This document shows, piece after piece, positions 917 through 43,481 of a stretch of DNA of 64,000 nt. How positions within the stretch are numbered: position 1 is the first letter of the stretch; each line of letters begins with the position of its first letter. The position numbers and the translations under genes are program-made. This DNA is from Bilabrum cf. latius (Eukaryota). The stretch spans positions 868,001 through 932,000 of the forward strand of contig OZ237752.1 in NCBI GenBank assembly GCA_965178125.1. The letters are read 5' to 3'. The notes below the pieces were generated by a model, which had not been told where the DNA came from, ran no database searches, and saw nothing but the letters and a program-made list of their open reading frames with translations.

Positions 917-1095
917 TTGCGTTGCTGCAGCAAGACCGTTGAACAGATAGATCTATTCGAATCTACACCGTGGGCATTTGTTCTCATTCTCATTTCATCG
1001 AGAACGAGGTTAAATGACCGCACAGTTTATTCGTTTCGACGTATTCACAGTTCAACGCAGGCTGTCTCACGCAGCTATAGTATTTTGACTCCGAT

Positions 1096-4444: not shown

Positions 4445-4803
4445 GATACAATAGAGCTGCAATGCTTGTATTGCCGTTGACGATCCGAGTTCATGCCAAA
4501 TGACACGTTATCACTATATTGTTGACGAGCTCCCCGCAAAAGTGACGCTTGGCGAAGCAATCCAAATAAAATCTTTCTTTTATTTCTTTTTATATCAGCC
4601 AGCTGGTTCGAAATCTTGCGTCGCTGTTGCCGTTGCCATTTTGGTAGTTGCACATAATTGGAATTTGGTTGCCTTTCGCAAGAAAACTGGTTGTACCAAG
4701 TGCGTACTGTGTGAGGGGGGCGTACAAAATAAGCTGCCTGTATCCAAATTGCTGACAGGTGGGTCAATTCGGGTCTGTGTTGCAATCGGAGGCGCTACCA
4801 AGG

Positions 4804-7800
4804 ATGGACTTTGAGCAACGTTCCCGGTTTAAAACAAGCCCATCAGGCGATCGTTCAGCGGATGAAATGCCAGACAATGTGAACCATGGCCACCTTTTGA
4901 GCGGAATTAGTGGCCACTCGGCTGCCGCGCCAGCCCGGCCTGTGGAGCGAACCTCCGTGCGGGCTGCTTCATCTTTGATGCAAACACGGCATGGCGTCGG
5001 CATAGCCGTAGGCTCTGTTTTTGATGTCGATGGGGATCGTCGCGCATCACCCTCCCATCCGCGGTTGCCAACAGCGCCGGCTGCATCGGCCCGGGAGGGG
5101 GCGTTGCGAGAAGCTCCGGCAACCGGCCCGCACCTGCCAAGCAGCGCGGGAGCGCAGTTGCACCCAGATGACGCGGAATCTGCCGGCAGATCACCTCACA
5201 CCCAATCGTACGTGCGCGTTTCCGGTTCTCGGGCCGGGGACGCGACCGGTCGCACAGTGCGGGGGCGGCGAGGCCGCGCATGGGGGCCTGGGTCGGACGC
5301 CGGCAGCAGCAGGACCACGACAGCACCTTGCATTGGCAGTGGCAGTGGCAACAGCAGTAGTATTCGGAACGGATTGGGCCCATCGCGGCTCCCTGTCGCT
5401 TCTGCGGGAGATGGGGGGGCCATATCGGATGCAGATGCAGGCAGCACCAGCGGAGGCGGCAGCCCAACGCGGGTGTCAACAGGTCGAAAACGGGCGGGTC
5501 AGCCCGTCCACGCACTTGGAACAGCTGCGCCTGCTGGGGATGGGGAGGGGGGCCAGTCCACCGGCAGGAGTGGCAGCACGCAGCGGTCGGGGCCGGGCCA
5601 GCGCAGCTCTGTCGGTGCTGCGCTGTTGGGAGGTAGAGGTAGAGGTAGAGGTGCCGGGCAGGGGGCTGGCACGGGGCCTGGCACGGGGCCTGGGCCTGGG
5701 CGGGGCCCCTCGGCGTCTCGGAGGAGGCCGGCGGCGAGGGACGGCAGTGTGACGAGTGATAAGTCTCGGGGGTCTGTCGGGCGGCAAGGGGCGCAGGGGC
5801 GGAAGCGGAACGGGAGGCAGGGCAGGGCCAGGGAACAGCGGTCCCAGAGAGGGGCTGCCGCCGGTCAGGGCAGGAGCAGGGCACACGGAGGCGCCAGGGG
5901 CGCGGGCCCGTCCTCCTCCTCCTCGTCATCGCGGCAGAGTAGCGCCCGCGTGCGACTCAAGTGCTACTGCAGGGGTGTCATCAGGGTGGTCACGGTGGGC
6001 TCTTCCTCATCCTTCAGGGGTCTCTTGGGCCGCCTGGCTCAGGACTTCGGTTTGCAGGCGGTCCCACAGCTGAGGTACGAGGACGAGGACGGCGACCTCA
6101 TCGTGCTGTCCTGCCAGAACGACCTCAACGAGATCGTTCACCACTTCGCGGGGGGTACCGCCAAAGTGCACCTTACCCCCAACCCTGAGGAACAGCAGGC
6201 GGTGGCCCACAGCGCCCTGGAATTGCCCACGCCGGGGGCATCGACCAGAGGGGCTTTGGATCCGCTGCCTGCTGCCGGCAGCCAGCAGCAGCAGCAGCAG
6301 CAGTCGGGGGAGGGCAGGTCCGGTCATGCCGCTGCTGCAAACGGGAGCGCCGAATCGAAAGATGCCGCTACCGGAAGTGAAACTGCCTCGCCGCCCCTTG
6401 AGGTGGCGGGCAGTGGTAGAGCGGCGGGCACTGGCACGGTGGCAGCCGGTCTCTTTGTGCCTGGAATCGGCCCGAGGGACGGTGGAAGGGGGGTTGCCAA
6501 CGCAGCGATAGTCGTTGCAACCGCAGCTCCGTCATCGTCGGCCGCTGCCGAAATACCCGGGGGGTCTTCCGTGCATTTTGGAGCCGCGAGCCGCAGACGG
6601 GCCGGTTCACCGGACGTCACCCGGCCCGGTTTCAGCAGGGGATCTATGCTTCGGTCCAGGAATGACAGCAGGAGGAGCGGAAGGGCCGTGCGGACGATTC
6701 GGAGGTGGCAGCGGGGCGAGAAGCTGGGTCAGGGCGCTTTTGGCGAGGTGTACGTGGGGCTGGACAAAGACACGGGCGAGATCTTCGCCGCCAAGCAGAT
6801 CGACGAGGACGAAGTGGGCCCGTCGGAGCTCTCGTCCATGCAGCACGAGATCACCATGCTGCAGAGAATGGACCACGACAACATCGTGAGGTACCTGGGC
6901 ACCCAGAAGGAGGGCTCCACTCTCAGCATCTTCCTTGAGTACGTTCCCGGGGGCTCCATCCGCTAGCTGCTCAACCGCTTCGGGGCGCTAGACGAGGCTG
7001 TCATTCGCGTGTACACGAGGCAGCTGCTGCTGGGGCTCGAGTACCTGCATTCGGCTGGCATCGCGCACAGAGACATCAAGGCTGGGAATCTGCTGGTGAC
7101 GAACGACGGGACGGTCAAAGTCGCCGATTTCGGGGCCTCCAAGCGTATGCAGATGGCATCGATGAAGTCCGCTTCCCTGCTGGCATCGCCGCGCCCGGGA
7201 ACGGCCGGGAAACGCAAGAAGGGCGGTGGCGACGACTCGGAGCGATCTGGGGGGTCCATGCAGCAGGGGCCCATCGGGACAGCGCTCTTCATGGCACCAG
7301 AGGTCATCTAGCAGACGCAGAGCGGGAGGGGCTGGCGGCGGGCGGACGTGTGGTCTGTGGGCTGCACCGTCCTTGAGATGGCCACTGGTAGGCCTCCATG
7401 GTCGGAATACAGCAACCCAGTGACGGCCATGTATCACATTGCGTGCACCGATGCCGTCCCCGAGCCGCCCGAGTCGCTCTCCGCAGAGGGCAAGGACTTT
7501 CTGAGGCAGTGCTTGCAGCGCGACCCAGGCCGGCGCCCCGACGTCACAAAGCTGCTGCTGCACCCGTTCGTGTCGAAGATTCCGGACGCCTCACTGCGAG
7601 CCACATCGGCGACGCTCTTGCATGCATTTCCACAGAGACCGTCCACGGGGCACGGCAGGCCGGCCACGTCCCTCCGGGGCGATTCCAGCTGGCTGGGTGC
7701 CATGTCTCCGGCAATGGGCTCGAGGCTGGCAGGGGCGGACTCCGACGCGTTCGGGCTGGAGCAGTGGGCCCCGGTGCCTCCCGCCGGTCGGCTCGAGTGC

Positions 7801-10800
7801 AGCTCTCCGACGAGCGCGGCCGCGGGAGGAAGGGCCGCATCGAGAGGGGCCAGGGTGCGAGCAGGCAGCACTGGCAGCGGCAACGGCAGGAACACGAAAG
7901 ACGAGAACGAAAGGGGGTTCGACCACGCGGGTGAGCTTCCCTAGATCGTGTCGGGTGGGCCCGACCGTGCCGAGGTGGAGGGCGAGGGCATCGGCCTGGA
8001 GTCGGCGCCTGGTACTGCCTCTGCCTCCGACGCGACAAGCGCCTCCTCGTCGGCCAGGAGGTCCCCGGCAGCGGACTACATGCGCGTGCACGGCTCGCCC
8101 GATTCTTCCGTTCGGACTGTCCTAGCCCCCAGCAGCGCGGATGTGGAGGGTAGCCTCGCTGACAGCGAAGGCAGCGACTCAGCAGGGGGAGAGGGAGACG
8201 GAGCGGGCGCGATGCCGAGCAGTGGTCGGCGCGGGCGAGGTAAGAAGCGGCGCGGCAAGATGCCCTCACTATTCGAATCACTGGGCTTTCCCCTGCCTGA
8301 TGAAGAAGGTGCAGCTGGCCTGTCCTCGTCTGACGCCGGTGCGGCCCGCAAGGACCTGACGGCTGGAGGTTCGGAGGAGCAGAATGAAGACGGGCTGGCG
8401 TGGGCGCCGCCGCTCGATGGACCCACGGACGGGCTGGCGCAGGGCTCCCTGCCCAGCATCGTGGAGGATGACGACGAGAGCGGGGAGGGGCGGCGGGGCA
8501 TGCACCGGTTGGGTGGCGACGGTTCTGATAGCGATGCTGGTGAGGGTGATGGGATTAGCATGGCTTTCGCTGGGAACGGCGCTGTGGCTCGAATAGGCCG
8601 TGGTGACATTAACACAGGTGAGGATTCGTCCGATTTGTCCGCCTCTGGCGAGGCCATCCACCGCGGGATCATTCCTGGGCGTCCTGCCCTGGGGTCCCTG
8701 GGAGGCTCCATGGAGCTCATGTCATCGATGGAGGAGGGAAGCCAGGCGGAAGCGGAAGGGGAGTCGGTGGACGAGAGCGGTACGACCGGGCGCGATGATC
8801 CCCGTGATGACAGGCCCAGCCCGGTCGCCCGTCGAGGCTAGAAGTCTCCCAGGCCCAGAGGAGACGCGGACCGACTGGCAGTGCGCCGAAGGGAGAGGAC
8901 AGGTCCCGCCGACAGGCCCAAGACGACCATGACCCGCGGTGCCAAGTCGGTAGGGAGGGGCCTGCGCGCTGGCTCCAGGGAGCAGTCCCCGAGCGGCGGC
9001 AGGGCGGGGCGGCAGAAGCGCGTCAGAGGTGCCGGCGGCGCTCTACGCAGGCCTGCCGCCAGCAGGCCACGCGCGCTGAGTCCGGCGGCGAGGGAGGCTC
9101 AGCTGCGCAGAGCGGCATCGGCACAGGACCGGACCTCTTCGGGTGGTCGCGTTGCTGGGCTGCGTGCCGGTGGCGTGGGCAGGCAAACTGCCGGGAAGGC
9201 GTTCGCTGGCAGCCCGCCAAAATCCCGCCAGCGGCCAGGGCCCAAGCCAGGGGACGGTGCTAGCGCCGGAACGAAGGGGAGCGGCGGTGGCGGCCGGGGA
9301 AAGGGAAGGGCAGGGTCCCCGCTGGCCACTGCAACGCAAGCGAACGGTAGCAAGACGGTCGGCAGGGTCGCGACGAACGGCAATCGTGGCAAGAAGCAGG
9401 CGACGGCTCGCGCCATCCGTGCGCAGGGGGCGACCACCGGTCGCGGCGACAGGCCGGGGGCAGAAGGGTTCGTCGTGGAAGGGGGTGCAGGAGCGATGCA
9501 TGGGGGAGACGCCTTGGATGAAGAGGAGACTCGGGCTTAGATCACCAGTAGCAGCAGCAGCAGCCATGATAAACCAGGTGGGAAATGGACGAAAGAGCAT
9601 GGCTCAAAGCCGTTGGCTGCTGGTGCGACGGGAGTGCTCCCGGACGGCTCGCCACTCCAGAGGAGAGGTGGGGACGGGGGCCCTGTGGGAAACCCGCCCG
9701 CTGCTTCTCTGTCTCTGCAACCAGACAGTCGTGACGGCAGCAGCATGCTGGATGCATCGGAGTCCAAGCGTGGCGACCGGTCTTCCATGCACCGCTACCA
9801 AGCGCTGTCGCCCCGCAAGAGCCCCATCACCGCGGGCGAGGCCATCACGCCTCCTAGGAAGGAACCTGGCCTGTCCTCCTTTGCTGATTCGCACGCCGGT
9901 GGCAGCGGCAGCCTCCGGCTGCCCAAGCAGGAAGCCAGCCCGTTGCCTGGAAGCCGTCGGCTGGCACCCCTGCCCCTGCGTGACGACCCGCTCGACCGGA
10001 CAGGCGGGAGTCTGGCCATGAGCATCGCCACTGAGCTGTCCGGGGCTGGCGATACCGGTGCAGCTGCGAGCCCAGCCGATGGCGGCCAGGCGGTTGACCC
10101 CTTCGCCCAGGCCGATGCGAACGGACTAGACCGAGCGGGAATCGCGCAGCAGGGCGTCTCTGTCCGCCTAGGGACCGGCATCCTTGGGGGCACTGGCAGG
10201 ACCATCGGCACGGTGCTGTCCGTTGACGATGATCGAGACGCCGACGAGCTCGCCAACGTGACGCCGGGTGGCTCCATCGTGCTTGGCAGGGAGCAGAGCG
10301 GCGGCGGTTCATCCTCCTCCTCCGCGGATGGGCCCGCACTCGAGGTGGCGTCAGACAAGGGCAGTGGGTCAGACGATGAAGATGAGTACGAAGATGATTT
10401 CAGCGACGGGTCTGACAGCGTGCTGTCGTACGGCGCCACTCCCGAGGCATCTGCTGCTCGAGAAATTGCGGCTGGTAGCAGGGGCTCTGCAGGCAGTTTG
10501 CTCGCGCACGAGGAGGAGGAATGGGAATCGCGCTGTAGTGGGCGTGGACTAGAAGGTGCAGAGGATGGTCCAGTCAGCGGCAGGAGCCCTCATCCCGGTG
10601 CTCCACAACACAACGGACGACGGACAGGAGGAGACGAGGGCGCAGTCAACGATGCTAGAAGTCCGCGGCATCGTGTGCAAGAACCATAGGATAGCTGGCT
10701 CCGGTGGGTAAACCACGAGGCCCAGCGCATCGCAGCTGCGGGCTCGGGCAGCCTCGACCACGTGAGCTGCCTGGAGCACGGGCACTCAGCCACGATCACG

Positions 10801-12942
10801 TCTGTCAGCTGCGGACCGAGGTTCGCTGCAACTGGTTCCATGGATGGCCTGGCGATCGTGTGGCCTGGACCTAGGAGCAGCGAGGGGAGGCCTGGCAGTG
10901 CGATGCACCTAGGATAGGGTGGTGTGCAGCACCGCGATGGATCCGAACCCCTCGGTGGGTCGCAATCCATGCAGCCGCTTGCGCGCCTTGCCCACAGACG
11001 CGAGCAGCCCCAGTCGTCATCTGCCACTTCGCCAGGCGGACCTTCGCGACCGGTCCGAAGTGGCCAGGCCGAGAAAAGCAGCCGTAGTGCCGCCCCGATT
11101 GCCGTGACCTCTGTGCACGTGTCGAGATCCGCAGTGGAGGGCAAGTTGGCTCTGCTCACCGGCGACGAAGACGGCGTGGTGCGCGTGTGGGAGGCAACTC
11201 CAGGTGATCTGGCGTCCGGTAGAAAACCAGCGTCCCCGGCTGGTGCTTCACGCAGTGCCAAAGGGCGCGATGTAGATGAGGCAGATGGTTCAGGCCCGTT
11301 CGAGCTGCAGCAGGTCATGCAAGGGCACAAAGGAGCCATTCGATGCTTGGCTTCCGCGGTTCGCACCACAGCACGGAGACTCTCGACACTCGGTGGGGCG
11401 GGCGCCGCTGACGCCACTGAGGGTTTGAACCCTACCCCGCCATCACTGCAGCCGCAAAAGCAGCAAGTGCTTGTAGTTGTGTCTGGATCCACGGACCAGA
11501 CCATCAAGGTGTGGGAACCGATGCGACGGAGACCCCTCGTTCGCACGCTACGGGGCCACCGCGGGGCAGTGGCTGCGCTCGCTATGACTCCAGAAGGAAT
11601 GCTCTTGTCATCGGCAGCGGACAGAACCGTGCGGTGCTGGTCACTCAGCAGCGGGAGGCAGGTGATGGTGCTGGCTGACCACCTGGCGGCCGTGACCTGC
11701 ATCGCTGTCGCACCGGACTGGCTGAGGCGGGCGCAGGCAGTGCGACTGCTAGCATCGCACAAGGCAGACGCGCAGAGCGGGTCGGGCACACAGGCTGCCA
11801 TCCCTGCAGCGCAGTCCGGCGGGAGCGGTGCTGCCGTTGCAGGCGCTGGAAATGTTGGGACCGGTGCAGCTGCCACGGTGTCGCCAGGTAGAGTTGGGTA
11901 GACTAGGCCGGCGGTGGCGGTGAGCGCAAGCGCGGGAAGCGCTGCTGCGGTGGCAGGTCGTCCTCCGAGGCACGGGGACGGCGCTGCTCTTCGTGAGATG
12001 CTGAGCTCCGCAGCTGGCAGCAACCAGGGCTCTATATCGCACGGTGGTGCGCACGGGGCTCCTGCAGCTGCCAGCGGTGTGGCTGCCGGCTCCATTGTGC
12101 AGCAGCAGGTTGCTGCAGCGCACGAGAGGACGAAGGGCAAGGAGCGCGCAGTGGCAAAAGTGGCCCTGAGCGAAGCAGTCGCAAAAGTGGCAAGGGTCAA
12201 GAGGGTGGGTGAAGCGGTCCCAAGCACTCTCAGAGGGGAACTGCCGCTGGTGGTGTCTGGCTCCCGTGATGGATTCGTCCGCGTATGGTCCGAGGCAGGA
12301 ACGCTCATGCAGCAGCTCAAGGCTCACAGAGGCACAGTGCAGCACGTTGGATTTGCGCCTTTGCACGAAGCAGTGCATGCGATGCACCGGAAGAGCATGC
12401 GGGCCTCCCATGCCGCGCTCCATGCTGACCTGGCAGCCCGGGGCGGGGATACGAATGGCGCTCTCCGATTGTACGGCGCGACCGGGATAGCGCTTGCGGT
12501 TTTGGATGCCCTGCCCAAGCCGATGCAGCGCCTGTGCGACTGTGTCGTGTCGAGCGGGACTGACGGTGTCATCCGGCTGCATGACGCGCTGGTGGGGAAA
12601 CCTGTCGCTGCCCTGCAACCGGCCTCGCACCGGTCACCGGTTACCAGCCTGGCTTGGACGCACCTGGGTACTGCGGCAGCTGGGCATGCCGACGGGACAG
12701 TGAGGATGTGGGACATGGGGGGCAAAGAGGAGCGGGGTTCTTTTCCTGCCGGCGTGGGGCAGCCCGCGGGTGCCAACGCAACGAGCAACACCAAGGCTGG
12801 CGGGACTGGCGCTACCTCTGTCGGCGTGACCAGGATGACTACCTGCGGCGGAGCGCTCGTGTGTGGCACGAGGTCTGGTCAAGCGTGGATGCTGCATGCG
12901 AGCGGGGCGGGCGGAGCTCGGCCTCCCTCAATGCTGGGTTGA
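4804..12942 (+). CDS. Giant STE11/MEKK-type MAP3K with PB1 domain and C-terminal WD40 repeats (~2712 aa, 8 in-frame TAG)
   Basis: Eight ORF-track fragments share one frame, separated only by TAG (6964, 7309, 7942, 8839, 9538, 10687, 10915, 11899). PB1: [14 protein letters not shown]...[13 protein letters not shown]. Kinase: [69 protein letters not shown]40: [63 protein letters not shown]. Ends TGA. Confidence 0.88.
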
Positions 12943-13068
12943 TCCGGATCTGATCCGGATCCAATGAATGAATCCTGCAAAGTCAGTGAACACATCATAA
13001 GCTTGTCATAGCAACAAATACAAGACCAAGCTAATACACTACTCCCGAACGAAGCCTAGGGCCCTTGT

Positions 13069-16000
13069 TCACACTGCTGTGACGATACCACGAGGCATGC
13101 CCATCGAGAGATACATGTCCTTCATGGTCGTCACGAAGGTGTTGCTACCGCACAGCGTCACACTAAGAAGATCTCGAGGTGGCAAGATCGCTGCTAGCTG
13201 CTTGTCATCGACCCTGCCCACATGCAGGTTCTCGTACGAATGCAGCGGATGAGATCCCAGCACCTTCCGCTTGATGTTGATGTGAAGCTCAAAGTATGGG
13301 CACTTATTAGCCGCGTCCAGCAGCCACTCCGCTTCGAGCACCTCGTCCTCGCATCCGAACACCACGAGCAGCACCAGCTTAAGGTCGTTGAAGCTCTTCT
13401 TGTCGATGCCGCTAGAATTCTCCGAGTCGCTGGAGGACTCCACCTCGGACGGCTCTGCAGTAATGAGCCGTGAGCTCTTCACGGACGCTCGCTGAGACTT
13501 TACGTACCTCTTGGCCGCCTACAAATCCACACCAGCGGAAGCTGCTATGTCGTCGTCTGTGGGGGCAGATCTCCGCTGCGTCCTGCCGCCTGTACCTGCT
13601 TGATGGTGCGGTGCTGATGGAAGCGAATTGCGTCGACCAGCGACAGCCATGGGCTGCAGGCGCCGCGACGAGTCGCTCGACCGCTTGGACTCGCCACGGC
13701 TGGTGGTTCCTGCCCCTTCCAATGAGCTTCCCGAGTGGGTCCTACCTTTGCCCGAGGTGAAGGGCACGTGAGCGCTGTTCAAGAGCTTGTCCGGGTCATC
13801 CACACCGACCACGCTCTCGTTCCCGCTCGACTTCTCAGTTACATCTGACGAGCGCCGCATGCCCATCCTCTTGGGACTCAGCTGCCGACCGATATCGTTC
13901 GTAGCATGAAGGATATCTGCAGCCGAGCTGTTCTTGGCCAAGAATATATCAGCATCCTTCAAGGTTCCGCCGTGCATCGGGGTGTGAGCGGGTGCAACCG
14001 CTGCGGCTCCGTGCGGCGACAGTTGATGAGCAGCCACGTGGGGCAAGCTTCCCATGGAAGCCGCCCTATGGAGCGTGGCCCTCGACAGATACACGTTCTG
14101 GTGCTCCTTCAGCTGGATGCCCTGCTCTTTCTCGTACTCGAATTTGGCAATAAGGTACTGGATCAGGTCGTAGTACGTGAAGGAGCATGTGCCGAGGGCC
14201 ACGCCCACCACCACTCCAGAGCTCGTGTCGTCGAGATGCAGCCCGACTCCTCTAGGCCCTGACATCTCGATGGAGCCGCCGTCGTGTACCTTGTGAATCA
14301 AGGGAGACACCTCACCGCCCTCGTACTTGCGCACAAACAGCTCCATCCCTGGCTTGCCTGGCCGCCTCACGATCGTGTACGGACGCATCACGTATCCCTG
14401 GCCCTCCGAGGCCAAAGACGTACCATAACTCCCTAGGTAGGACATCTGAGTGTGATTGCACTGCATCCGAACAAGCATGTAGCGGCCGAAAGTGGATGGC
14501 TTCCACTCGTGTGGCTCCGAACCCTCTGCGCCTGGCCGCCGCAGCACGAGCCGCTTCACGGGGCGCTTGTCGCGGAGGCTGATCGATTCAGCGCGCCGGA
14601 CCGTCCAAGCCTCCCAGACATCGTTATCTTCGACCGTGGCCTCTGCCCATGCCTTTCCCTTCTTTCCCTTGGCTGCCCCGTGCTTCAACACCCCCACGCA
14701 CATGCTGCGTAGGAGATCTCTGGCCCTGGTGCTGTGCACGTGCTTGCCCACGTGGCGGTCGGATGCCTCCCGTCCGTAGAAGAACTGGTGGATGTCGGAA
14801 CCGATGCACCGCTCCACGAGGTAGGCCCCACCAGGATGGTTGCGGACGAAATTCGTCACGTCGAACACCCAGCCCTCCAGTAGCACCAGCTTGCTGCCGT
14901 TGCGGACGCTCCGCCTCACGTCTTGCATCGACATTGACTGCGCGCTGTTCGCGATGAAGTCGCGCTTGAGCGTAGTGACGGTCTTGCCACCAACGATGGA
15001 GGCAGGAGCTGCCAGCGTCTCCCGCATCACCTCGTCGTACACGCCCAGGGCAGCGTACGCGAGGCAGATGAGCACGAGATACCCCAGAACGTAGTATCTT
15101 GCCTCGGGCAGCAGCATGGACACGCCGAGGTACACGTTCACCATGCCCAGCCCCGCCATGAGCCAACCTAGGATTCGGTGCCCTTGCATCACCCAAACGA
15201 ACTCAGAGGGCGGCTTCTTCTCTCCTCTTAGCCAGTTGCGGGCCGCGGCACCGAGCACGACCTGGATGATGATGACGATGGCGAGAGTCACGCCGAAGTA
15301 GGCATGGATCTAGGCGTTGCTAGTCTGGGTCGCCGCAATGGCCGCGCCTGCCGCAGGGATGGTCAAAGTGGCGGCCATCATCATGGTCCACCGGTGGAAC
15401 TGCTGGTAGAAGGAAAGGTGCCGGAAGAAGCGCACCGTGAACACGCCCATGGGCACCATGAGTCCCCAGGTGGCGAACATGCTGATGCCGTGGAAGCCGT
15501 ACGCGGCCAGGCGGGCGTTCCGGTAGGCATTTCCACCGGCGCCGCTGATTCGTGCTGTTGCGGTGCCGTTGCCGGTGGGCTGCTGAAAGAGATCCACAGA
15601 TGCCATGGCTCTGTTAGGCCCGTGCGCTCCAACGGCGTCCGAGCCCGTGTCCCACGCGAAGATCAATGGCGTGTCGCCAGTCGTGATTGGAATGTCGTCT
15701 CCATCTCCAGTATCTAGCGCGCGTCGGAATGTGATCGATGTCACCCCGTCAGCCTCTGTAGCTGATACCACCTCTGCGTCCTGCTGACCGTCCCGAACAG
15801 GCATGGCATAGCCAGCGGAGATCGTGTCTGAAATCTCGGCCTCGCCATTCCTGACGGCCATCGTGATGATGTCCGCATTGGACATGCCCTGACCGACCCC
15901 CCAAGCCATCCACCCGGTACCCTGCAGCGTGAGAGTGATGTCGATGCTGGTGTCGGTGTCTGCCGGTGGCGCCCACTCCATGCTGATCACGTCCTCGACG

Positions 16001-18781
16001 ATCACGATCGTGTTGGTCAAGGGGACCGCGCCTCCGGAGCCAGCGCCGCCAGAGCCGGCTGGGCTGTCGCTGCTACTCGAGTTCTCGGTCGGCGACGCTC
16101 CAGTGTCTGGGGGGTCGCTGGCGGGACACACGGGGCATTGGGTGCAGATAGTTGAACCATCGCTGTTGCCGGTGCCGGTGCCGGTGCCAGTTGTCGAACC
16201 GCCGGTTTCACTCTGCGCAAAGAGAGGCACTCGAACCGAGATTCGCTGATTTCCATGGAACCCAACAGTGCTCTCGGTGGTGGACCACGCGAACAGCATC
16301 TCGACGCTGCCGCCGTCCGCCCATGTCAGCTGGAAGTCGTCCCCATCGACAGTGATGAGATCTCTCTCTACCGTCCACGTGGTCGCCCCGCCGGTCTGGG
16401 AGGCAGATACGACCCGCCAGTCCTGCTGCGCGTCCACATCGGGCAGAGCATACGAAGTTGCTTTGCCGTCCACTGCAACTCCCCTGCCGTTTGCGAACGT
16501 CAGGGAAACGACGTCGCTGCCCCGCATCCGGGTGCCGAAGCCTGCACCCACCCACCCCGTGCCGTCCAGCTCCAGCGTGACAAGTATCTCCGTGTCGGTT
16601 TCCGTGACCTGGTTCCAGCGCATGGTGAGCTTGTCCGAGACCGCCAGCTCCATGGTGGGTCCGCCCGGCGAGGAAGTTTGCGGGTCGCTGCCCTGAGCTG
16701 GGGTGGCTTCGATGGGCACTGCAGGAGCCACGGCGCCCTCGGGCTGCACCTCGAGGCCCATGAAAGTGACTTCATCAATGGTGCGAAACACGGATGATGG
16801 CGCGTTGGTGAAGTCGGTGTTCCGCCGGATGACGTCGGAGAGCTTGGTCGCATCGATCTCCTCGATCTCCTCATCGCTGAGGTAACGCACGAAGCGGCCG
16901 TCCTTGAACCCCCCCGCCTCCCGGTTCTTGTAGTAGAAGCGGTCGCTGTCCCTGGATCGGATCATTTGTTCCCTGATGATGACCCGGAAGGTCTCGGACA
17001 CGAAGGCCTGCCCCGAGGACTCCTCCGCAAGCCCACCCACCCACAGGTCGACGTCGTCCACCGAGGCGTACAGGGACCTGAGCTTCTCTGCCACCTGCAG
17101 GTTGGAGGTGATGTCCTCGAAGTCACGAGGGCGAGATAGACCGTACTGCTGCCTTGCCGTGGCATAGGACGCGATGCCCGCGTCCCTACCCCTGACAATG
17201 TCGATCACGGCGAGGTCTTGCTTGATGCCCTCCACCCAGTTCCGGACGTCATCCACCATGGCCGTGTCGATTGCCTGCTCGGGCTGCAGCACCAAGCCCC
17301 GCAGATAGTCTCCAATGGTGCTCCACTCCAAGTAGGACGGGTTGAAGTAGACATCCCGTAGCAGCAGGTGGCCTTGGGGGCAGTTGGTCCCGTCTGGCTT
17401 CACGCACCAGTACACCTGGTTGATCCCGCTGTGGCCGTAGCGGTAGGCCGCCACCGCAAACGCCAGGTCAACGGATGGATCTAAGCCGGGGTTGTAGCCC
17501 GTGTAGTCAGGCAGCGGTTCGCCCAAAAGTAGCGGGGTGTACTCGTTGTAGGTGATGGACTAGATGATGGCGCGAACACGGATGCGGGCCTCCTGGAAGA
17601 GCAGCTCGTCGGACCAACTCGGATGCTCTTGGTGCAAGCGTTCTGCTTGACGATTGTGCTCGAGGATGAAAAGGCAGTGTAGCGCCAGGATGCCGGGGTT
17701 TACGTTGCCCCGGTCGTCGCCAGTGAGCCGTTGGCTGGCCGAGTTTCCGAATGGACCCGCCATCGGTGCCGTCTGACTGTTTCGCGGGCAGCCATTCACG
17801 GAATCGTGCTTCAATTGACCCCAATGAAACGTCCTTAATTCGCGAACCCTACTAAACGAAGCTCCGTACACAGTGCTGCCATCAATGAAAGCGGTTTGGG
17901 CATTGAGGGGCTGCCGCGGGTTCTGCGGGCTCGAGCCAGTCAAGGGGTCATAGCTGCACAAGAAAAAGTAAAATGTGTAGCAGTGGAAGAATGTGTAGCA
18001 ACAGTAATAGCGTGGTGGTTCTAGAAGTGTACATCAATGGTCGCGGCACGAAGCTGGGAGGATGCATGCGAACAGTCGACGTAACTTACTTCATCCGCTT
18101 GACAGGAATGCTATGCCCCTCGAAATGCGTGTCACCGGTGGGTACTGCAACAGAAATTACTTCGTTGGGATCGGACGCATTGTGAGGCGTCGTTCGAATC
18201 ACATCATGGGCGATGAACTGCGAGGTTGGGCGCTTGGAAGGCATGAATTGATTGCTGCATTTGTAATCCGCACGAGCCGCATGCATCAAGCCTTCGAAAG
18301 GAACTCATGACACATGATTCCAATGATGGCGCTTACCTGACCTGCGATGCAGAAGTGGTCGGCGAGAGTTGTGAGAGAGTGATACACGTAGAGCCGGAGC
18401 ATGATGACCTGCTCATGAATGTCCAAACTGATACTCGCTGCGTCCACGCCACAACATGGAAGGGTACACACTGGTTAATAGTTAGGCGCTCTTACCCCAT
18501 GCTGCAGCCATAAACGCTATTTGAGCTTTGTTGTACGAGAAAGGTGGCACGCCGAAGAGCTCGGAGGACACCAGCCGAGCATTTGGAAGATGGGCACCAA
18601 TTGAGCCCGTGCCGTCGCTGAAGAACGCCATCTGATGCTTCCTAAGAAATCTACTGCCGGGTGTTCCCATGTTTCCATCGATCGGGTTGTTGCTTCTTCC
18701 ATCAATTGCGCTGTGGACAGCACTCTGTCCTGCTGCCAGCGATCCGGAAATGGTAAGCAGACACATAATACGGCACGGCAT
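13069..18781 (-). CDS. Multidomain protein: signal peptide, animal-type heme peroxidase, 2x DOMON, cytochrome b561, cytochrome b5, FAD/NAD(P)H reductase (~1767 aa); exons 18781-18496, 18341-18337, 18217-18090, 17953-13069
   Basis: Peroxidase: IDGRSNN, LPNARLVS, WGQFIAHD (spliced), TAFIDGSTVYG, GDDRGN, FILEHNR, AII(Q)SITYNEY, AAYRYGHS, DIVRGRDAG, DVDLWVGGLAE. DOMON x2: GWVGAGFG..MRGSD..FHG and GWMAWGVG..MSNAD..AHG. b561 with four His: FHGISMFATWG, FHRW, IHAYFG, GHRILG. b5: VFDVTNFVRNHPGG..HVHS. Reductase: RPYT, VRKYEGGEVS, SGPRG, LCGS. TAG at 17560, 15310, 13519; ends TGA. Confidence 0.88.
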
Positions 18782-19136
18782 GACAGCGTGGTACTGATTT
18801 TCGGGTGGATTGCGATGCAATGGACAAAGTACTGTGCCTGCACTACACACTGATGTCGCACAGCGGTCGCTAGAGTTGTTTTGGTCGCACCGAGCGCTGG
18901 CGCAGCGCTCGCTAGAAAAGCTCACGTTACCTCAAATCCGATTAGATAAAACACCACCTGCATGAGTTCCTCTTGGCAGCATCTTGATCGAAGTTCCTTT
19001 ATTCAGGTCGGCGTGGAATAATTGCTGAACCACTTGTTGGCTGCACGGTGCCAGCCTCGAGCCAAACCTGCAATCACTTGCCAGCTTCTCCCGAGCGGAG
19101 CAACCGGCCAGAAGGCATGCCATCGAACGGTGGCAG

Positions 19137-24993: not shown

Positions 24994-25787
24994 TGTGGTC
25001 GACTCTGCAGCCGTCGAGGCTCTGCCAGTCGTGTCGATTGCGTGCATGCAGTGCTGCGAGGGTTGCGCTCTGGGGTGGGGTGGGTGGCGTGCCGACTCGG
25101 CTTCTTGGCACTGTCGTCTCCCGGTGTGCTGGAGCTTAAGGAGTGGCTACGAACGCTCGCGTACATGTTTCCTTTCAAAGCTGGTTGCACACGTGGCGCC
25201 GTGCAGTGCGGGCCGCATCGGTGTGACAGGCGTAGCGTGTCGCAGGCCGGACCTCTGGGTGGATCACTGTGCCTGCAGATTCGGGGTGTAGCCTGCTTGG
25301 TCTTGCCATAATTGATGTATGACAAGTCATTTGCGTGTTAAGCTTCTCTTGTTATGATCCAGTTCGTATTTCTGCGTTGGATGGTTGCGACCGGACCGGC
25401 CCAGTGTATGCCCCGCGAGCTGCAGCAAAGCCCCATTGCCATACGGTCCGCCGTTAGGCGCATCTGTTCAAAAATATCTTTTATTTATTTGTCGGTGAGA
25501 TAATTCGAGTGTAGTACGGAACGTTGGCCATCATCCGACACTCGCACCCGCAACGGACTTCTGCAAGACAAGTACTTGCCACCGCTATTTGTGCCCCATT
25601 TCCATCGCGACTATGCTCTCTCCCTTTCTATTCACCCATGTGCTGCGATACTGGGGCTTAAGACAGCCCGTATTTTCTGTAAAGCCATCCTGGATAGAGA
25701 CTAGGTGACCCTTAATGCTTGGAGCATGATTAACTGAGCCTGCTTACGCGTTGCAGGTACTGAGAGACTAAGAGCTTAGATTATATC

Positions 25788-28700
25788 ATGAACCGAGAAG
25801 GATCCTCCAGCGCGAATACCTACTTCCCGCTCGATGTTCCCAACGCATCGACCCTAACCGGTTAGCATGAGATGTGTCTCGCACTAGCGGCGCATCTTCC
25901 GACACTACCATTCACGACATTTGGACCATTTCATAGTCATTCGTATTCAACTCGTGCAGACCGCGGCATCCCGCGTGGCTCCGTCAGAGGCATAGGCGAA
26001 CGGCAGCAGCGTGCCAAACGACAAGCTCGCCTACATGAGGATAGGTCAAGATCTGGGCTGGATGCATTGCTATCGCAAGATTCTATTCCTATGTTGCACA
26101 CGGTCGGATCAGTGATGCCAGGTGCTTCGCCCGTCGGGGCGGGAGCTTTGCCGTCTGGTCTCCCGTCGGTTCCAGCATCTCCACCGGAAGGCCTCGAGCA
26201 AGGCTCGTCTGTGTTTTCTGGCACTGGGGCATCTGGCAACGGCCTTCGGGCTGCGTCGGACTTCTAGGGGACATGGGGGGCGCCGAGCGACAACGGGGCC
26301 AGCTCGCAGCAGCACTTCGCTCTCCTTAAGCGGGCGGGCCAGACCTCTCATCATGCTGGCGGCCACAGGAGGTCGCAGACCTCTGGCGGCGCAAGGGCAA
26401 GGGCAAGGGCGGGTGCTGGACCGCATAGGAGCAGAGCGCGACCACCCGGAGCCAGACATAGGGGAAGCACCACCGCAGGGCACAGGCACGCGCGCTCGGG
26501 ATCGTCGCCCGCGTACTACCGAGGAACCACGGCACCTACGGGGCGGGCCAGCGATGCTTCCCTACTCGGCACCTACGGGGCGGGCCCCTCGCCTGCCGAG
26601 CTGAGGTCGGTACTGGGACCACACACCCACGGTGGGCTGGGGTCAGGCACTCATTACACTAGGAGATCATCCCGATCAGGCTCTCCGCATGCAAGAGCCG
26701 GTGCAGGCGTGGTAGGCATGAGCGACTCGATTGCGGACAAAGTGGGCGACTTTGACGAGGACTCGTTGATTGCGGATGCGATCCGTGCCAGTGGCCAGGA
26801 CTACAACCCAAGCGCTTCCATGGGCAGGGAAGAAGCCAGAGAACAAGGACTGTTGGAGGCACTTGGTGCATCCGCAGGTGCACGCGGCACACTCCCGATC
26901 GAGCAGCAGGGCTGGGCTGGCTCAGGGCAGGCGCTAGCACTGGTGCTCGGGGTAGAGGGAAGGAACGGGCCGGTGGCGGAGTTACCACCCGTACCTAGCG
27001 CAAGCACTTTATCATAGTTGAGAGCAACGATGAGGGCGCACGCGAATTTCTCCAGGTCGAGCGGGCTGCCGCAGAGCTTTGCGTTCTTGCACTGGGGCCA
27101 GGACAGCAGTCGCCGGTCAGGTCGGCGAAGGTCGGTGCACCGGGTGCCCATTCCTCGCTGGGTTGAAGACCAGGTACTGGTAGAGAACAGGGACATGCCG
27201 CTCCCGGGCCAGGCAGGATACGACAGAGCAATGGCCAGGGATCCTGCGGCAGAACCTGCTGGACCCGTGGTGTGGGTACGACTGCTCACCCCTGCGCAAG
27301 ACAGGCTAGCGGACGAGACTGCAGTCCGACGAAAGCTAGACGAGCAGCGGAGGCTGGAAGAGGCCAGACACCGGGGTGATCCTGCATTGAGTATCCCAGG
27401 GTATGCCTACGCCCGCGCCACCGCAGAGATGGACAAGCTGAGGGCGAAATCGAGGCAGGCAGGCAGCGGCATCACGGAGCACGACGTGATGGAGCGAGCC
27501 GCTGCCATGGTATCCCGGGGATAGACCAGGGGAATCGTCTGGACACCCACGAGCTCGGCAGCGTCGCGCCGAAGCAGCACTGCGTGTAGAGAGGCTGCCA
27601 GCACGGGGCTTCCAGTGCCGAGTGGTCACGCAGAGAGCAAGTCGAGTGGCGACAGCCGTGACTCTCTGGCTGGCACGCTGGACGCCTCCAGGTCCAGCGT
27701 GGACGGTGGTTCTTCGCTGTCCAGAGCAGGTGCCCAGGCGGTCGGCACTGGACATGCCAGAGAGTTGCAGTTCGATGCACCCAAGAAGCACCGTTTCTTC
27801 CAGACTATGGAGGACCGCGAGGCGACCCGCAAGCGGAACGAAGAAAGGGAGCGGAAGTGGCGGAAGAAGCAGGACGAGGCAGCCGCTAGGCGAGCAGATG
27901 AGTTGGCTGCGGCAGATCAAGCAGAAAGGTTAGCCCAGAAGCAGAATAAGCTGCGCTCCGAAGTCACGCACCCGCCTTTGCCGTCGAAGACCCCTGCTCG
28001 ACGCGACCAGACGTCAAAGGCAGGAAATGAGGAAGCCGGTGCCGAATTCGTTCCATCTGCAAATCCGGACACAGCCATGGGTAGCGGCAGCGGAGGAACA
28101 TCAGCCTTGTCACCTGCTGTTACAACCGGAAGCTCACCATCTGGCAGGCCAGCCGACGACAATCTTATATCGGCACCAGCTGCTAGGCCTAGGCCGGTCT
28201 TCGTGCTCTCAGAGAGCTCGCTGACCCCTGTGAAGGCAAAAGTGTCAGGCGATCAAAGTGCAGCCGGGTCGCAAGATGTCAGCATTGAAATGCTGTGCGC
28301 TACACTGCCGGATGGCACGTAGGTGCTGATACCTAGGCAAGCGCTTCAGTAGGAGCAGTCAACGCCGAAGTCGCTCGCGGTTGCACCTGCCCCTGCCCCC
28401 GAGCACGTACCTGCAACAGCATCATCAGCAACAGAGTTAGCAGCTGCACCAGCAGCCGCGCCAGCACCGGAGGCAGCGCCAGCACCAGCACCGGAGCCAG
28501 CACCGGAGCCAGGGCCAGCGGCCGCGCCAGCACCCGCTCCAGCACCGGAGCCAGCGCCAGCGGTCGCGCCAGCACCAGCGCCAGCACCAGCGCCAGCACC
28601 CGCTCCGGCACCCGCTCCGGCACCCGCTCCAGCACCCGCGCCAGCACCAGCACCGGAGCCAGCACCGGAGCCAGGGCCAGCGGCCGCGCCAGCACCCGCT

Positions 28701-39692: not shown

Positions 39693-39742
<50 letters not shown>

Positions 39743-43442: not shown

Positions 43443-43481
<39 letters not shown>

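What the first reader, a model, noticed from the sequence alone, without database searches (positions are those of the whole stretch)
13069..18781. Single-chain transmembrane redox machine: peroxidase-DOMON-DOMON-b561-b5-flavin reductase (a DUOX analogue built from different parts)
Seen in sequence: one frame encodes a signal peptide, an animal-type heme peroxidase with distal His/Arg and proximal His, two DOMON domains each retaining the Met and His heme ligands, a four-His cytochrome b561, a cytochrome b5 (HPGG...H) and an FNR-family FAD/NAD module. Established: DUOX couples an extracellular peroxidase-like domain to a NOX electron conduit, and CYBDOM proteins pass electrons from b561 to DOMON. 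Inference: this protein forms a complete wire, NAD(P)H > FAD > b5 > 2 b561 hemes > 2 DOMON hemes > extracellular or phagosomal acceptor. It could make peroxide for its own peroxidase or reduce iron, for prey killing, surface cross-linking or iron uptake. I know of no characterised protein with this full architecture. It would be annotated as 4-5 separate genes under the standard code.
Basis: partly seen in the sequence, partly recalled or inferred. Interest (0 to 1): 0.87.

Follow-up and report, generated by a model that had tools for sequence, protein, structure and literature searches.

The report
Membrane-spanning NAD(P)H-wired haem peroxidase
One spliced gene of a protist that reads TAG as glutamine encodes a 1,767-residue chain that links an inside NAD(P)H-flavin-cytochrome b5 unit, a membrane cytochrome b561, two outside DOMON cytochromes and an outside haem peroxidase; unstudied relatives occur in several protist and fungal lineages.

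Summary
A minus-strand gene runs from the ATG at 18781 to the TGA at 13069: four exons, one a 5-nt microexon, 1,767 codons, three in-frame TAGs. Contigs of two runs carry the spliced form, cross all three TAGs unchanged and end in a poly(A)-like tail. TAG is best read as Gln. Pfam, fold searches and invariant ligands support: signal-like N-terminus, animal-type haem peroxidase (distal His/Arg and proximal His kept, both covalent-link residues lost), two DOMON cytochromes (Met/His), a five-helix four-His b561, cytochrome b5, and a b5-reductase-type FAD/NAD module holding a ~215-residue disordered insert. Five helices place the peroxidase outside and the reductase inside.

The protein is not unique. 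Of the 150 best representatives, 96 have the b561-b5 junction and 38 the full peroxidase architecture (Cafeteria, Platysulcus, Cyanophora). Others carry an unrelated plant-type peroxidase (Gonapodya) or a ceruloplasmin-like copper oxidase (Paulinella) on the same conduit. I found no paper on it.

The wire NAD(P)H>FAD>b5>b561>DOMON is well supported. The DUOX-like peroxide-making role is the least favoured endpoint. More likely the chain feeds electrons to the peroxidase, directly or through iron. Function is untested.

The parts
18496..18781 (-). Exon 1: ATG at 18781, hydrophobic signal-like N-terminus (MPCRIMCLLTISGSLAAG), first 95 codons of the peroxidase domain
   Evidence: Sequence. PF03098 hit E 6.7e-7. 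53% identity to Cafeteria P0004 residues 24-91. Covered by spliced contig X6 record 19.
18337..18341 (-). 5-nt microexon GTCAG, flanked by ag| and |gtaagc, supplying the G-Q of the conserved W-G-Q-F-I-A-H-D motif
   Evidence: The contig joint 18494>18220 is non-canonical as a single intron, but its letters equal those of two GT..AG introns around this microexon. AG|GTCAG|GT occurs once in the 273 skipped bases; 0.0007 expected by chance.
18090..18217 (-). Exon 3: distal His (FIAHD), with Ala where covalent-haem peroxidases have Asp
   Evidence: Aligns to P0004 FVAHD. P0004 aligns to QFLdHD of 8s6c. Joint 18090>17953 seen in X5 and X6, ends GT..AG on the minus strand.
13069..17953 (-). Exon 4: the rest of the protein (residues 140-1767) and the TGA stop at 13071..13069
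   Evidence: Open frame with TAG read through. Contigs X5 records 6 and 10 and X6 records 14, 15 and 18 cover it.
16708..17953 (-). Peroxidase domain, exon-4 part (to about residue 555): distal Arg (DDRGNV, with Val at the Glu-ester position) and proximal His (AAYRYGH)
   Evidence: PF03098 E 1e-103. Residue-level alignments to 8s6c, 6erc, DUOX1 and EPO.
17560..17562 (-). In-frame TAG, codon 271
   Evidence: The aligned column is Q in 7 of 7 homologues, in 51 of 53 family members with a residue there, and in all 5 aligned solved chains. Unchanged in contigs.
16213..16650 (-). DOMON 1 (residues ~575-720), Met in GTRM and His in GFHG
   Evidence: Pfam DOMON, 2 stretches. 40% identity to DOMON 2, E 1e-32.
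15583..16020 (-). DOMON 2 (residues ~785-930), Met in GQGM and His in GAHG
   Evidence: Pfam. Fold matches DBH DOMON and CDH/PDH cytochrome domains: Foldseek E 1e-8 to 1e-5, VIA Z 17.1-13.8. The Met is nearly invariant and the His invariant.
15022..15510 (-). Five-helix cytochrome b561-type membrane domain (residues ~955-1117) with four His: FHG, FHRW, IHAYFG, GHRILGW
   Evidence: PF03188 E 3e-4, 21.4 bits, below the cut-off of 23. Five helices in the model at pLDDT about 85. Five hydrophobic segments only. 4o6y Z 11.8 and 5zlg Z 11.6. The four His are invariant.
15310..15312 (-). In-frame TAG, codon 1021, two residues before the third b561 His
   Evidence: The aligned column varies (V, I, I, I, L, V, R, Y). 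Unchanged in contigs.
14686..14928 (-). Cytochrome b5 domain (residues ~1149-1229), HPGG and second His in HVHST
   Evidence: PF00173 4.5e-9. Aligned to solved b5 and b2.
14251..14613 (-). FAD-binding beta-barrel of the b5-reductase/FNR type (RPYT, GEVS)
   Evidence: PF00970 5e-6. Model strands at pLDDT 84-96. Foldseek to 2eix, 7rom and 1umk.
14056..14217 (-). First part of the NAD(P)H-binding subdomain (VVVGVALGTCSF, a variant of GxGxxP)
   Evidence: Model E257-264 and H265-287. Alignments of 522-552 columns to 243-272-residue reductases span both subdomains. No Pfam NAD_binding hit here. Relative P0227 has PF00175.
13408..14049 (-). Disordered Ser/Arg-rich insert of about 215 residues inside the NAD subdomain; holds the TAG at codon 1618 (13519..13521)
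   Evidence: pLDDT 26-38 over model residues 313-526. Variable in length in all relatives.
13072..13383 (-). Second part of the NAD(P)H-binding subdomain (LKLVLLV..., CGSNTF)
   Evidence: Model pLDDT 83-94. Foldseek.
12987..13068 (-). 3' UTR up to a poly(A)-like end
   Evidence: X5 contig record 6 ends at 12987 with a loose T10 on the + strand.

Best explanation
The gene encodes a type-I-like membrane protein.

Outside the membrane: a signal-like N-terminus, a haem peroxidase with non-covalently bound haem, then DOMON 1 on a flexible ~70-residue Ser/Thr/Gly tether, then DOMON 2. In the membrane: a five-helix b561 with an outer haem (His 1+3) and an inner haem (His 2+4). Inside: cytochrome b5 and a b5-reductase-type flavin module. 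That makes six b haems and one FAD.

Electrons from cytosolic NAD(P)H would pass FAD > b5 > inner b561 haem > outer b561 haem > DOMON 2 > DOMON 1. The fused b5/b5R would replace ascorbate, the usual b561 donor.

The most likely endpoint is the chain's own peroxidase. The DOMON cytochrome would act as its one-electron reducing substrate (Compound I/II back to ferric), as cytochrome c does for cytochrome c peroxidase and as the CDH cytochrome does for LPMO. The machine would then reduce outside H2O2 to water at the expense of inside NAD(P)H.

Shown here: gene model, spliced contigs, domains, ligands, number of helices, family. Inferred: cofactor binding, direction and endpoint of electron flow, location in the plasma or phagosome membrane.
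For: - Architecture and ligands.
- Topology: five helices and five hydrophobic segments only, all at residues 962-1117. The loops rich in Arg/Lys are the ones predicted inside (sequence). The His order outer/inner/outer/inner matches HYP1 H211/H245/H278/H314 (PMC10784544, passages).
- b5R fold with both subdomains.
- DOMON fold equals the CDH cytochrome fold. The CDH His/Met haem is +93 to +151 mV and is the physiological donor to LPMO (PMC6472588, passages).
- The peroxidase keeps distal His/Arg and proximal His. Across 59 fused relatives the proximal His is present in 47 of 55 with a residue at that column and the Arg in 38 of 50, so peroxidase chemistry is under selection.
- The same conduit carries three unrelated heads: An_peroxidase (46 of the 96 b561+b5 representatives), PF00141 peroxidase (P0180 and P0207, Gonapodya) and a ceruloplasmin-like copper oxidase (P0174, Paulinella). 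What these heads share is taking single electrons and reducing H2O2 or O2 to water.
Against: - No biochemistry exists for any member.
- b561 is below Pfam's cut-off in this protein, and its fold Z (11.8) is in the range helical bundles reach by chance.
- The NAD motif is altered (GTC for GTG) and no Pfam NAD_binding hit was found.
- The alignment around the distal His is poor: His in only 21 of the 38 relatives with a residue there.
- The Paulinella and Gonapodya proteins are unverified gene models, so the head-swap argument rests on 3 proteins.
- Compound I/II and b561 potentials are recalled, not measured here.
- A cell could remove H2O2 more cheaply inside, so the benefit is unclear.
- Direct DOMON-peroxidase contact was not tested.
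Confidence: 0.45

Rival explanations
1. Reductive-oxidative iron handling. The DOMON-b561 conduit acts as a ferric-chelate reductase, as CYBDOM and Dcytb proteins do. The fused head (peroxidase here, copper oxidase in Paulinella) re-oxidises the released Fe2+ for hand-off to a permease, like Fre-Fet3/Fox-Ftr1 or EfeB-EfeU. Iron is then the mediator between DOMON and peroxidase.
For: - CYBDOM HYP1 reduces ferric and cupric substrates through three b haems (PMC10784544, passages).
- Reductase, multicopper oxidase and permease form the classical uptake system (PMC4855317 and PMC9174327, passages).
- EfeB, partner of the Ftr1 homologue EfeU, is a haem peroxidase for which Fe2+ oxidation is discussed (PMC9174327, passages).
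- The Paulinella head matches ceruloplasmin, a ferroxidase by recall, at E 3e-123.
- The two enzyme classes fused to the conduit are the two classes that partner Ftr1-type permeases.
Against: - No permease or other iron gene lies beside the gene: 4 neighbouring frames were scanned, 3 without any Pfam hit and one a phosphatase.
- No animal-type peroxidase is known to me as a ferroxidase (recall).
- Reducing and re-oxidising iron on one chain is futile unless a permease is coupled.
- There is one copper-oxidase example only, and it is an unverified gene model.
Confidence: 0.25
2. DUOX analogue. The conduit reduces O2 outside to superoxide or H2O2, which the fused peroxidase then uses to oxidise halides, thiocyanate or surface tyrosines for killing prey or cross-linking.
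For: - The layout matches DUOX: outside peroxidase domain, membrane di-haem, inside flavin/NAD(P)H module. DUOX1 is among the closest solved chains to the peroxidase domain, E 8e-46.
- Unlike human DUOX1, this domain keeps both catalytic His, so it could use peroxide.
- Named relatives include phagotrophs such as Cafeteria.
Against: - DOMON-fold His/Met haems are six-coordinate and near +93 to +151 mV (PMC6472588, passages). That is far above the O2/superoxide couple (recalled, about -160 mV), whereas NOX haems are very low (recalled).
- The membrane domain is b561-type, not the NOX/FRD type.
- The same conduit is fused to a copper oxidase, which has no use for peroxide.
- Neither covalent-haem residue is present (Ala and Val), which by recall argues against chloride oxidation.
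Confidence: 0.15
3. No functional coupling. The peroxidase head works alone with external peroxide and substrates (adhesion or cross-linking, like peroxinectins), and the conduit is a general surface reductase that merely anchors it.
For: - The conduit exists without any head: DOMON starts at residues 22-57 in P0137, P0151, P0166, P0204 and P0224. Blepharisma and Protocruzia proteins lack a peroxidase.
Against: Three unrelated oxidant-reducing heads were recruited at the same N-terminal position, and 46 of the 96 b561+b5 representatives carry the peroxidase. Both are hard to explain by anchoring alone.
Confidence: 0.1
4. Annotation artefact. The TAGs are real stops, or the locus is a pseudogene, so separate shorter proteins or none are made.
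For: Three in-frame TAGs. No suppressor tRNA in the window. Translation itself was not observed.
Against: - There are 70 in-frame TAGs in the 8 longest frames of the window, all 8 of which end in TGA.
- TAG sits inside poly-Gln runs and at a column that is Q in 51 of 53 relatives.
- The frame stays open and conserved after each TAG.
- Spliced contigs cross all three TAGs.
Confidence: 0.03

Closest known systems
Dual oxidase (DUOX1/2)
   Same: Single chain with an outside animal-type peroxidase-homology domain, a membrane di-haem domain and an inside FAD/NAD(P)H module. DUOX1 matches the peroxidase domain at E 8e-46.
   Different: The membrane domain is five-helix b561, not six-helix NOX; 5o0t, 8u7y and 7d3e score lower (Z 10.1-8.7) than b561. 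No EF-hands and no PF01794, PF08022 or PF08030 hits. It has extra DOMON and b5 haems. Its peroxidase keeps the distal and proximal His that human DUOX1 lacks.
CYBDOM proteins (Arabidopsis HYP1/CRR; animal FRRS1/SDR2 by recall)
   Same: Outside DOMON with Met/His haem directly followed by a four-His b561. His order outer/inner/outer/inner. Three-haem conduit (PMC10784544, passages).
   Different: CYBDOMs take electrons from cytosolic ascorbate. Here a b5 and a b5 reductase are fused to the cytosolic end, a second DOMON and a peroxidase to the outer end. The one paper holding both 'CYBDOM' and 'cytochrome b5 reductase' is a plant phosphate-starvation review, seen as a listing only.
NADH-cytochrome b5 reductase, Ncb5or and the nitrate reductase C-terminus
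   Same: b5 followed by a b5R-type FAD/NAD fold. Best Foldseek matches are 2eix, 7rom, 1umk, 6mv1 and 5yly. RxYT and GxxS motifs are present.
   Different: About 10% identity. A disordered insert of about 215 residues splits the NAD subdomain. GTC in place of GTG. The module is tethered to a membrane cytochrome. No CS domain was seen.
Cellobiose dehydrogenase cytochrome domain donating to LPMO
   Same: A DOMON-like beta-sandwich His/Met b haem on a flexible linker that carries single electrons from a flavin module to a separate extracellular metalloenzyme (PMC6472588 passages; PMC10726044 abstract).
   Different: CDH is secreted and soluble and is fed by sugar oxidation. Here the feed crosses a membrane from NAD(P)H, and the acceptor would be a fused haem peroxidase.
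Short bacterial/protist peroxidases (8s6c 'Lactoperoxidase'; Dictyostelium peroxinectin A, 6erc)
   Same: Closest solved peroxidase domains: E 2.6e-76 and 7e-62. Distal Arg and proximal His align in both, and the loop I recall as the Ca2+ site aligns too.
   Different: 8s6c has both Asp and Glu at the covalent-link positions and 6erc has the Glu. This protein has Ala and Val. Neither solved protein has DOMON, b561, b5 or FNR modules.

Membership tests
Peroxidase-cyclooxygenase superfamily (Pfam An_peroxidase PF03098) | Profile match above the curated cut-off | tested here: met
   348 bits against a cut-off of 25, E 1e-103 on exon 4. Exon 1 scores 28.7 bits.
Peroxidase-cyclooxygenase superfamily (Pfam An_peroxidase PF03098) | Distal His and Arg and proximal His for haem and peroxide chemistry | tested here: met
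   The Arg in DDRGN and the His in RYGH align to 8s6c, 6erc and EPO. The distal His in FIAHD aligns to P0004 FVAHD, which aligns to QFLdHD of 8s6c.
Halogenating mammalian-type peroxidases (MPO/LPO/EPO) | Asp and Glu that form ester links to the haem (role recalled) | tested here: not met
   Ala stands before the distal His and Val after R-G-N. In 59 fused relatives, Asp occurs in 0 of 38 and Glu in 10 of 50 with a residue at those columns.
DUOX/NOX | Six-helix ferric-reductase (NOX) haem domain with FAD_binding_8/NAD_binding_6, and EF-hands in DUOX | tested here: not met
   None of these Pfam families hit. The membrane part has five helices and is nearest to b561. The flavin module is b5R-type.
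CYBDOM (DOMON + cytochrome b561) | DOMON with the Met/His pair | tested here: met
   PF03351 at 123 bits, two copies. Met and His align between the copies. The His is invariant and the Met nearly invariant in 20 sequences. Same fold as the CDH cytochrome.
CYBDOM (DOMON + cytochrome b561) | Cytochrome b561 core with two His pairs | tested here: inconclusive
   PF03188 at 21.4 bits is just under the cut-off of 23. Four His are invariant. Homologous relatives P0228 and P0240 score 32.3 and 29.6 bits. 4o6y Z 11.8 and 5zlg Z 11.6 tie with designed bundles. Taken together I accept it.
CYBDOM (DOMON + cytochrome b561) | Ascorbate as cytosolic donor | not tested
   The ascorbate-site residues were not compared. 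The fused b5/b5R suggests a different donor (inference).
Cytochrome b5 (PF00173) | HPGG His and second His | tested here: met
   36.7 bits against a cut-off of 23.7. Both His align to solved b5 2m33. Both are invariant.
FNR / cytochrome b5 reductase family | FAD-binding barrel with RxY(T/S) and GxxS/T | tested here: met
   PF00970 at 27.2 bits against a cut-off of 21.1. RPYT and GEVS, with R, Y and S invariant in 9 sequences. Fold match.
FNR / cytochrome b5 reductase family | NAD(P)H-binding Rossmann subdomain with GxGxxP and CGxxxM-type motifs | tested here: inconclusive
   The fold is present, TM 0.72-0.78 of whole reductases. There is no Pfam hit. The motif reads GTCSF, against GTGV in most relatives. 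CGSNTF is kept. Relative P0227 hits PF00175. Nucleotide preference is unknown.

The most novel reading that the evidence does not exclude
DOMON-b561-b5-b5R is a modular, pyridine-nucleotide-powered 'electron socket' of eukaryotic membranes. It would be the first b561 type driven by NAD(P)H instead of ascorbate. Different lineages have plugged at least three unrelated outside enzymes onto it that reduce H2O2 or O2: animal-type peroxidase, plant-type peroxidase and ceruloplasmin-like copper oxidase. This protein is its longest wire, with six haems and one FAD. The family would define a new class of trans-membrane NAD(P)H:peroxide/oxygen oxidoreductases, possibly a fused reductase-ferroxidase route of iron uptake in protists.
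Probability: 0.4. Interest if true: 0.85.

Novelty: new variant of a known kind. Interest (0 to 1): 0.7.

Why it matters
Known trans-membrane electron carriers come in two designs. NOX/DUOX/FRE proteins are NAD(P)H-driven, with low-potential haems that make superoxide or reduce iron. b561/CYBDOM proteins are ascorbate-driven, with high-potential haems.

This family would be a third design: b561 haems fed by a fused b5/b5-reductase and ending in a fused outside enzyme. If it works as read, it shows how cells can power an extracellular peroxidase or copper oxidase directly from cytosolic NAD(P)H. It would give a testable candidate for peroxide handling or iron uptake in abundant marine bacterivores such as Cafeteria. 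It would also offer a natural seven-cofactor single-chain wire for studying long-range electron transfer.

The locus is also a clean worked example of a nuclear TAG=Gln code in a GC-rich protist, and of a 5-nt microexon.

Tried and rejected
- Whole genome: none is held for this window.
I dropped the docking test, so direct DOMON-peroxidase contact is untested.
- phmmer of DOMON1-DOMON2-b561 against solved chains gave 0 hits at E<=10. Exon 3 alone gave 0 hits.
- Foldseek on the DOMON2+b561 model listed only beta-sandwich matches, no b561. The VIA wide search then found 4o6y and 5zlg.
- The profile of the whole alignment against PDB was swamped by peroxidases.
- The C-terminal 327 residues had no Pfam hit.
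- A regex count of catalytic motifs was too crude, with 31-41 of 59 showing 'no motif'. It was replaced by an alignment count.
- No RNA holder is listed for the stretch. Library types of X5-X7 are guesses; X5 also holds an unspliced contig at 18191..18425.
- Neighbouring frames were scanned to look for iron genes: 3 of 4 had no Pfam family and one is a dual-specificity phosphatase.
- No tRNA with a CUA anticodon in the window; only tRNA-Leu(CAG) was found. No Rfam family matched.
- Paper searches with no paper on the fusion: 32 papers held all 4 terms, 20 listed; those listed are on plant, algal or unrelated topics and none names the fusion; 2, irrelevant; 0; 0; 1, a plant review; 0.
- One search found no paper on a stramenopile UAG=Gln code (3 hits, none on point).
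- Supplements of papers were not open and were not used.
- I considered TAG=Leu because the column at codon 1021 is hydrophobic in 6 of 8 homologues. I rejected it because of the Q column at codon 271 and the TAGs inside poly-Gln runs.

Full report
**1. What is at 13069-18781**

On the minus strand an ATG at 18781 opens a frame that runs into a GT donor. The sequence and the contigs of public runs define four exons: 18781..18496, 18341..18337, 18217..18090 and 17953..13069. The CDS is 5,304 nt, or 1,767 codons, and ends in TGA at 13071..13069. It holds three in-frame TAGs, at codons 271, 1021 and 1618. With TAG read through, exon 4 is a single open frame of 1,654 codons.

'One frame' is true of exon 4 only.

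**2. Transcript evidence**

Four coded runs were laid on 12900..19000.

- X1 behaves as DNA: a contig runs through 16872..19000 with no joints.
- X5 and X6 come from two different studies and their library type is not on record. Each holds one contig with the joint 18090>17953, which skips 136 bases with GT..AG ends on the minus strand. Each also holds one contig with the joint 18494>18220, which skips 273 bases.
- The second joint is non-canonical as one intron. Its letters are identical to two canonical GT..AG introns around a 5-nt microexon, GTCAG, at 18341..18337.
- AG|GTCAG|GT occurs once in the skipped stretch, where 0.0007 matches are expected by chance.
- The joined codons give W-G-Q-F-I-A-H-D, in register with Cafeteria P0004 (FMGQFVAHD).
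- X6 record 19 (556 nt) links exon 1, exon 3 and exon 4.
- X5 record 6 (12987..15875) ends in a loose T10, which is poly(A) on the coding strand. It crosses the TAGs at 13519 and 15310.
- X5 record 10 and X6 record 18 cross the TAG at 17560.
- No letter differs at any TAG. The only differences are at 16157 and 16861.
- X5 also holds an unspliced contig at 18191..18425.

So the message is spliced and not split or edited at the TAGs. Translation itself was not observed.

**3. The code**

Reading TAG as sense raises the longest frames of the window from 1,391 codons to 2,729, 2,486, 2,279, 1,918, 1,775, 1,655, 1,540 and 1,473. These 8 frames hold 70 TAGs, and all 8 end in TGA. TAGs sit inside poly-Gln runs.

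The column of codon 271 is Q in 7 of 7 homologues, in all 5 aligned solved chains, and in 51 of the 53 family members with a residue there. The column of codon 1021 is variable. In this CDS Gln is written CAG 47 times, CAA 15 times and TAG 3 times. No suppressor tRNA lies in the window.

TAG=Gln is well supported. Whether TAA is also sense is open.

**4. Domains**

*Peroxidase.* PF03098 scores E 1e-103. The closest solved chains are 8s6c (2.6e-76), Dictyostelium peroxinectin A 6erc (7e-62) and DUOX1 (8e-46).
- The distal Arg (DDRGN), the proximal His (AAYRYGH) and the loop QTAFIDGSTVYG, which I recall as the Ca2+ site, all align.
- The distal His (FIAHD) lies in exon 3.
- The two residues that, by recall, ester-link the haem in mammalian enzymes are replaced by Ala and Val.
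- Among 59 fused relatives, Asp is present in 0 of 38 and Glu in 10 of 50 with a residue at those columns.
- Human DUOX1 lacks both His at these positions. This domain looks more competent than that of DUOX1.

*DOMONs.* There are two PF03351 stretches. The copies are 40% identical, E 1e-32, with Met (GTRM/GQGM) and His (GFHG/GAHG) aligned. The DOMON 2 model matches the DOMON of dopamine beta-hydroxylase and the cytochrome domains of cellobiose and pyranose dehydrogenase: Foldseek E 9.5e-9 to 8e-5, VIA Z 17.1-13.8.

*Membrane domain.*
- PF03188 covers profile positions 9-130 of 137, but at 21.4 bits against a cut-off of 23.
- The model has five helices.
- A hydropathy scan finds five segments, all between residues 962 and 1117, and none elsewhere.
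- The four His are invariant in 9 and in 20 aligned sequences.
- Relatives P0228 and P0240 pass the Pfam cut-off.
- The best natural membrane matches are Arabidopsis b561 (4o6y; Z 11.8, rmsd 3.5, 155 aligned) and human Dcytb (5zlg; Z 11.6, 164 aligned). They tie with designed bundles.
- I accept b561 on the sum of these lines, not on any one.

*Cytochrome b5.* PF00173 scores 4.5e-9. Both His align to solved b5.

*Flavin module.* PF00970 scores 5e-6. The model matches Physarum, yeast and human NADH-cytochrome b5 reductases, Ncb5or and the nitrate reductase fragment, at TM 0.72-0.78 of the target and E 4e-10 to 1e-7. The alignments span both subdomains. A stretch of about 215 residues (model 313-526, pLDDT about 30) interrupts the NAD subdomain. 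The nucleotide motif reads GTC where most relatives have GTG.

**5. Topology**

An odd number of helices (five), a hydrophobic signal-like N-terminus and Arg/Lys-rich loops after helices 1 and 3 together put the peroxidase and the DOMONs outside and b5/FAD inside. His 1 and 3 then lie near the outer face and His 2 and 4 near the inner face. HYP1 has the same pattern: H211/H278 apical, H245/H314 cytoplasmic (PMC10784544, passages read).

**6. The family**

The word-indexed search found 8 proteins with peroxidase, DOMON, b5 and FAD_binding_6 and 4 more with a conduit-only query. They include two Cafeteria roenbergensis hypothetical proteins.

The exhaustive representative search with DOMON2-b561-b5-FAD gave 2,153 hits at E<=1e-3, 463 at <=1e-10 and 69 at <=1e-30. 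I annotated the 150 best with HMMs built from this family:
- 96 have the b561+b5 junction.
- 46 of those also have the animal-type peroxidase.
- 38 have peroxidase+DOMON+b561+b5+FAD, and 2 of these 38 have two or more DOMONs.
- Some have no head: the DOMON starts at residues 22-57.

I looked up source names for 20 of these. Those with names:
- Platysulcus tardus and Cyanophora paradoxa: full architecture.
- Blepharisma stoltei and Protocruzia adherens: conduit only.
- Gonapodya sp. JEL0774: two proteins with a plant-type PF00141 peroxidase instead.
- Paulinella micropora: a ceruloplasmin-like six-domain copper oxidase, E 3e-123 to 4enz, ahead of DOMON and b5.

These last three are unverified gene models.

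Six searches that bear on the fusion found no paper that describes it. Subscription journals and supplements were not covered.

**7. Mechanism**

The upstream wire NAD(P)H>FAD>b5>b561 inner>b561 outer>DOMON follows from the domain order and the topology. It also follows from the established behaviour of each module:
- CYBDOM three-haem conduit (PMC10784544, passages).
- b5R to b5 transfer (recalled).
- The CDH cytochrome as a mobile one-electron donor with a His/Met haem at +93 to +151 mV (PMC6472588, passages).

The ~70-residue Ser/Thr/Gly linker between the DOMONs suggests that DOMON 1 swings between DOMON 2 and the peroxidase. This is inference.

For the endpoint I rank three readings.
1. 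*Direct reduction of peroxidase Compound I/II.* The machine would then be a trans-membrane NAD(P)H peroxidase.
2. *Iron as mediator.* Ferric reduction by DOMON and re-oxidation by the head, as in Fre-Fet3/Fox-Ftr1 or EfeB-EfeU (PMC4855317 and PMC9174327, passages).
3. *DUOX-like peroxide production.*

The third is disfavoured for three reasons:
- The haem potentials of this fold are high.
- The membrane domain is not NOX-type.
- A copper-oxidase head has no use for peroxide.

The first two share one logic: the heads are all enzymes that take single electrons and reduce H2O2 or O2. No neighbouring gene helps to decide. Nothing here is biochemical.

**8. Verdict**

It is not a DUOX and not a plain CYBDOM (see the membership tests). 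It is a new variant: a b561 conduit powered by a fused b5/b5-reductase and capped by a peroxidase. It belongs to an unstudied, patchily distributed eukaryotic family. Interest is high for redox biochemistry. It is tempered by the lack of any functional data and by the fact that the family already sits, unnamed, in public databases.

Noticed in passing
whole window; e.g. 4756..12942(+), 37265..44101(-), 25764..31517(+): TAG appears to be a sense codon, best read as Gln, throughout the window. The 8 longest frames hold 70 in-frame TAGs and all 8 end in TGA. TAGs lie inside poly-Gln runs. Whether TAA is also sense is open. Three shorter frames end in TAA.
   Followed up: partly
18337..18341 (-): A 5-nt microexon (GTCAG) between two canonical introns, needed to restore the WGQF motif of the peroxidase. 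Aligners place it as one non-canonical 273-base intron.
   Followed up: yes
16817..16901: An 85-base stretch inside the peroxidase exon has much higher contig depth than its surroundings: X5 277 against about 9, and an extra X1 contig at 25.7. The X5 contig carries a C>T at 16861. It may be a repeat or a conserved stretch shared with another locus or organism. Unexplained.
   Followed up: no
4756..12942 (+): A 2,728-codon frame with 8 TAGs. By eye it holds a protein kinase domain (GQGAFGEVY...HRDIKAGN...) and WD40-like repeats near the C-terminus. Not scanned against Pfam.
   Followed up: no
25764..31517 (+): A 1,917-codon frame with long Ala-Pro repeat tracts and 14 TAGs. No Pfam family.
   Followed up: partly
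37265..44101 (-): A 2,279-codon frame with 16 TAGs, poly-Gln and poly-His runs. By eye it has superfamily-1 helicase motifs (VLDEASQ, VDAFQGEE). Not scanned.
   Followed up: no
44352..44435 (+): tRNA-Leu(CAG) is the only tRNA found in the window. No Rfam family reached its threshold.
   Followed up: yes
protein P0101 (database, 4,632 aa): A relative with about 20 tandem DOMON domains ahead of b561-b5-FAD-NAD. It is either a very long extracellular haem wire or a mis-joined gene model.
   Followed up: no
proteins P0174 (Paulinella micropora), P0180 and P0207 (Gonapodya sp. JEL0774): The same DOMON-b561-b5(-FAD) conduit carries a ceruloplasmin-like multicopper oxidase in P0174 and a plant-type PF00141 peroxidase in P0180 and P0207, in place of the animal-type peroxidase.
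   Followed up: partly
1018..2490 (+): A frame with 3 TAGs encoding a dual-specificity phosphatase domain (PF00782, E 5.6e-9).
   Followed up: yes
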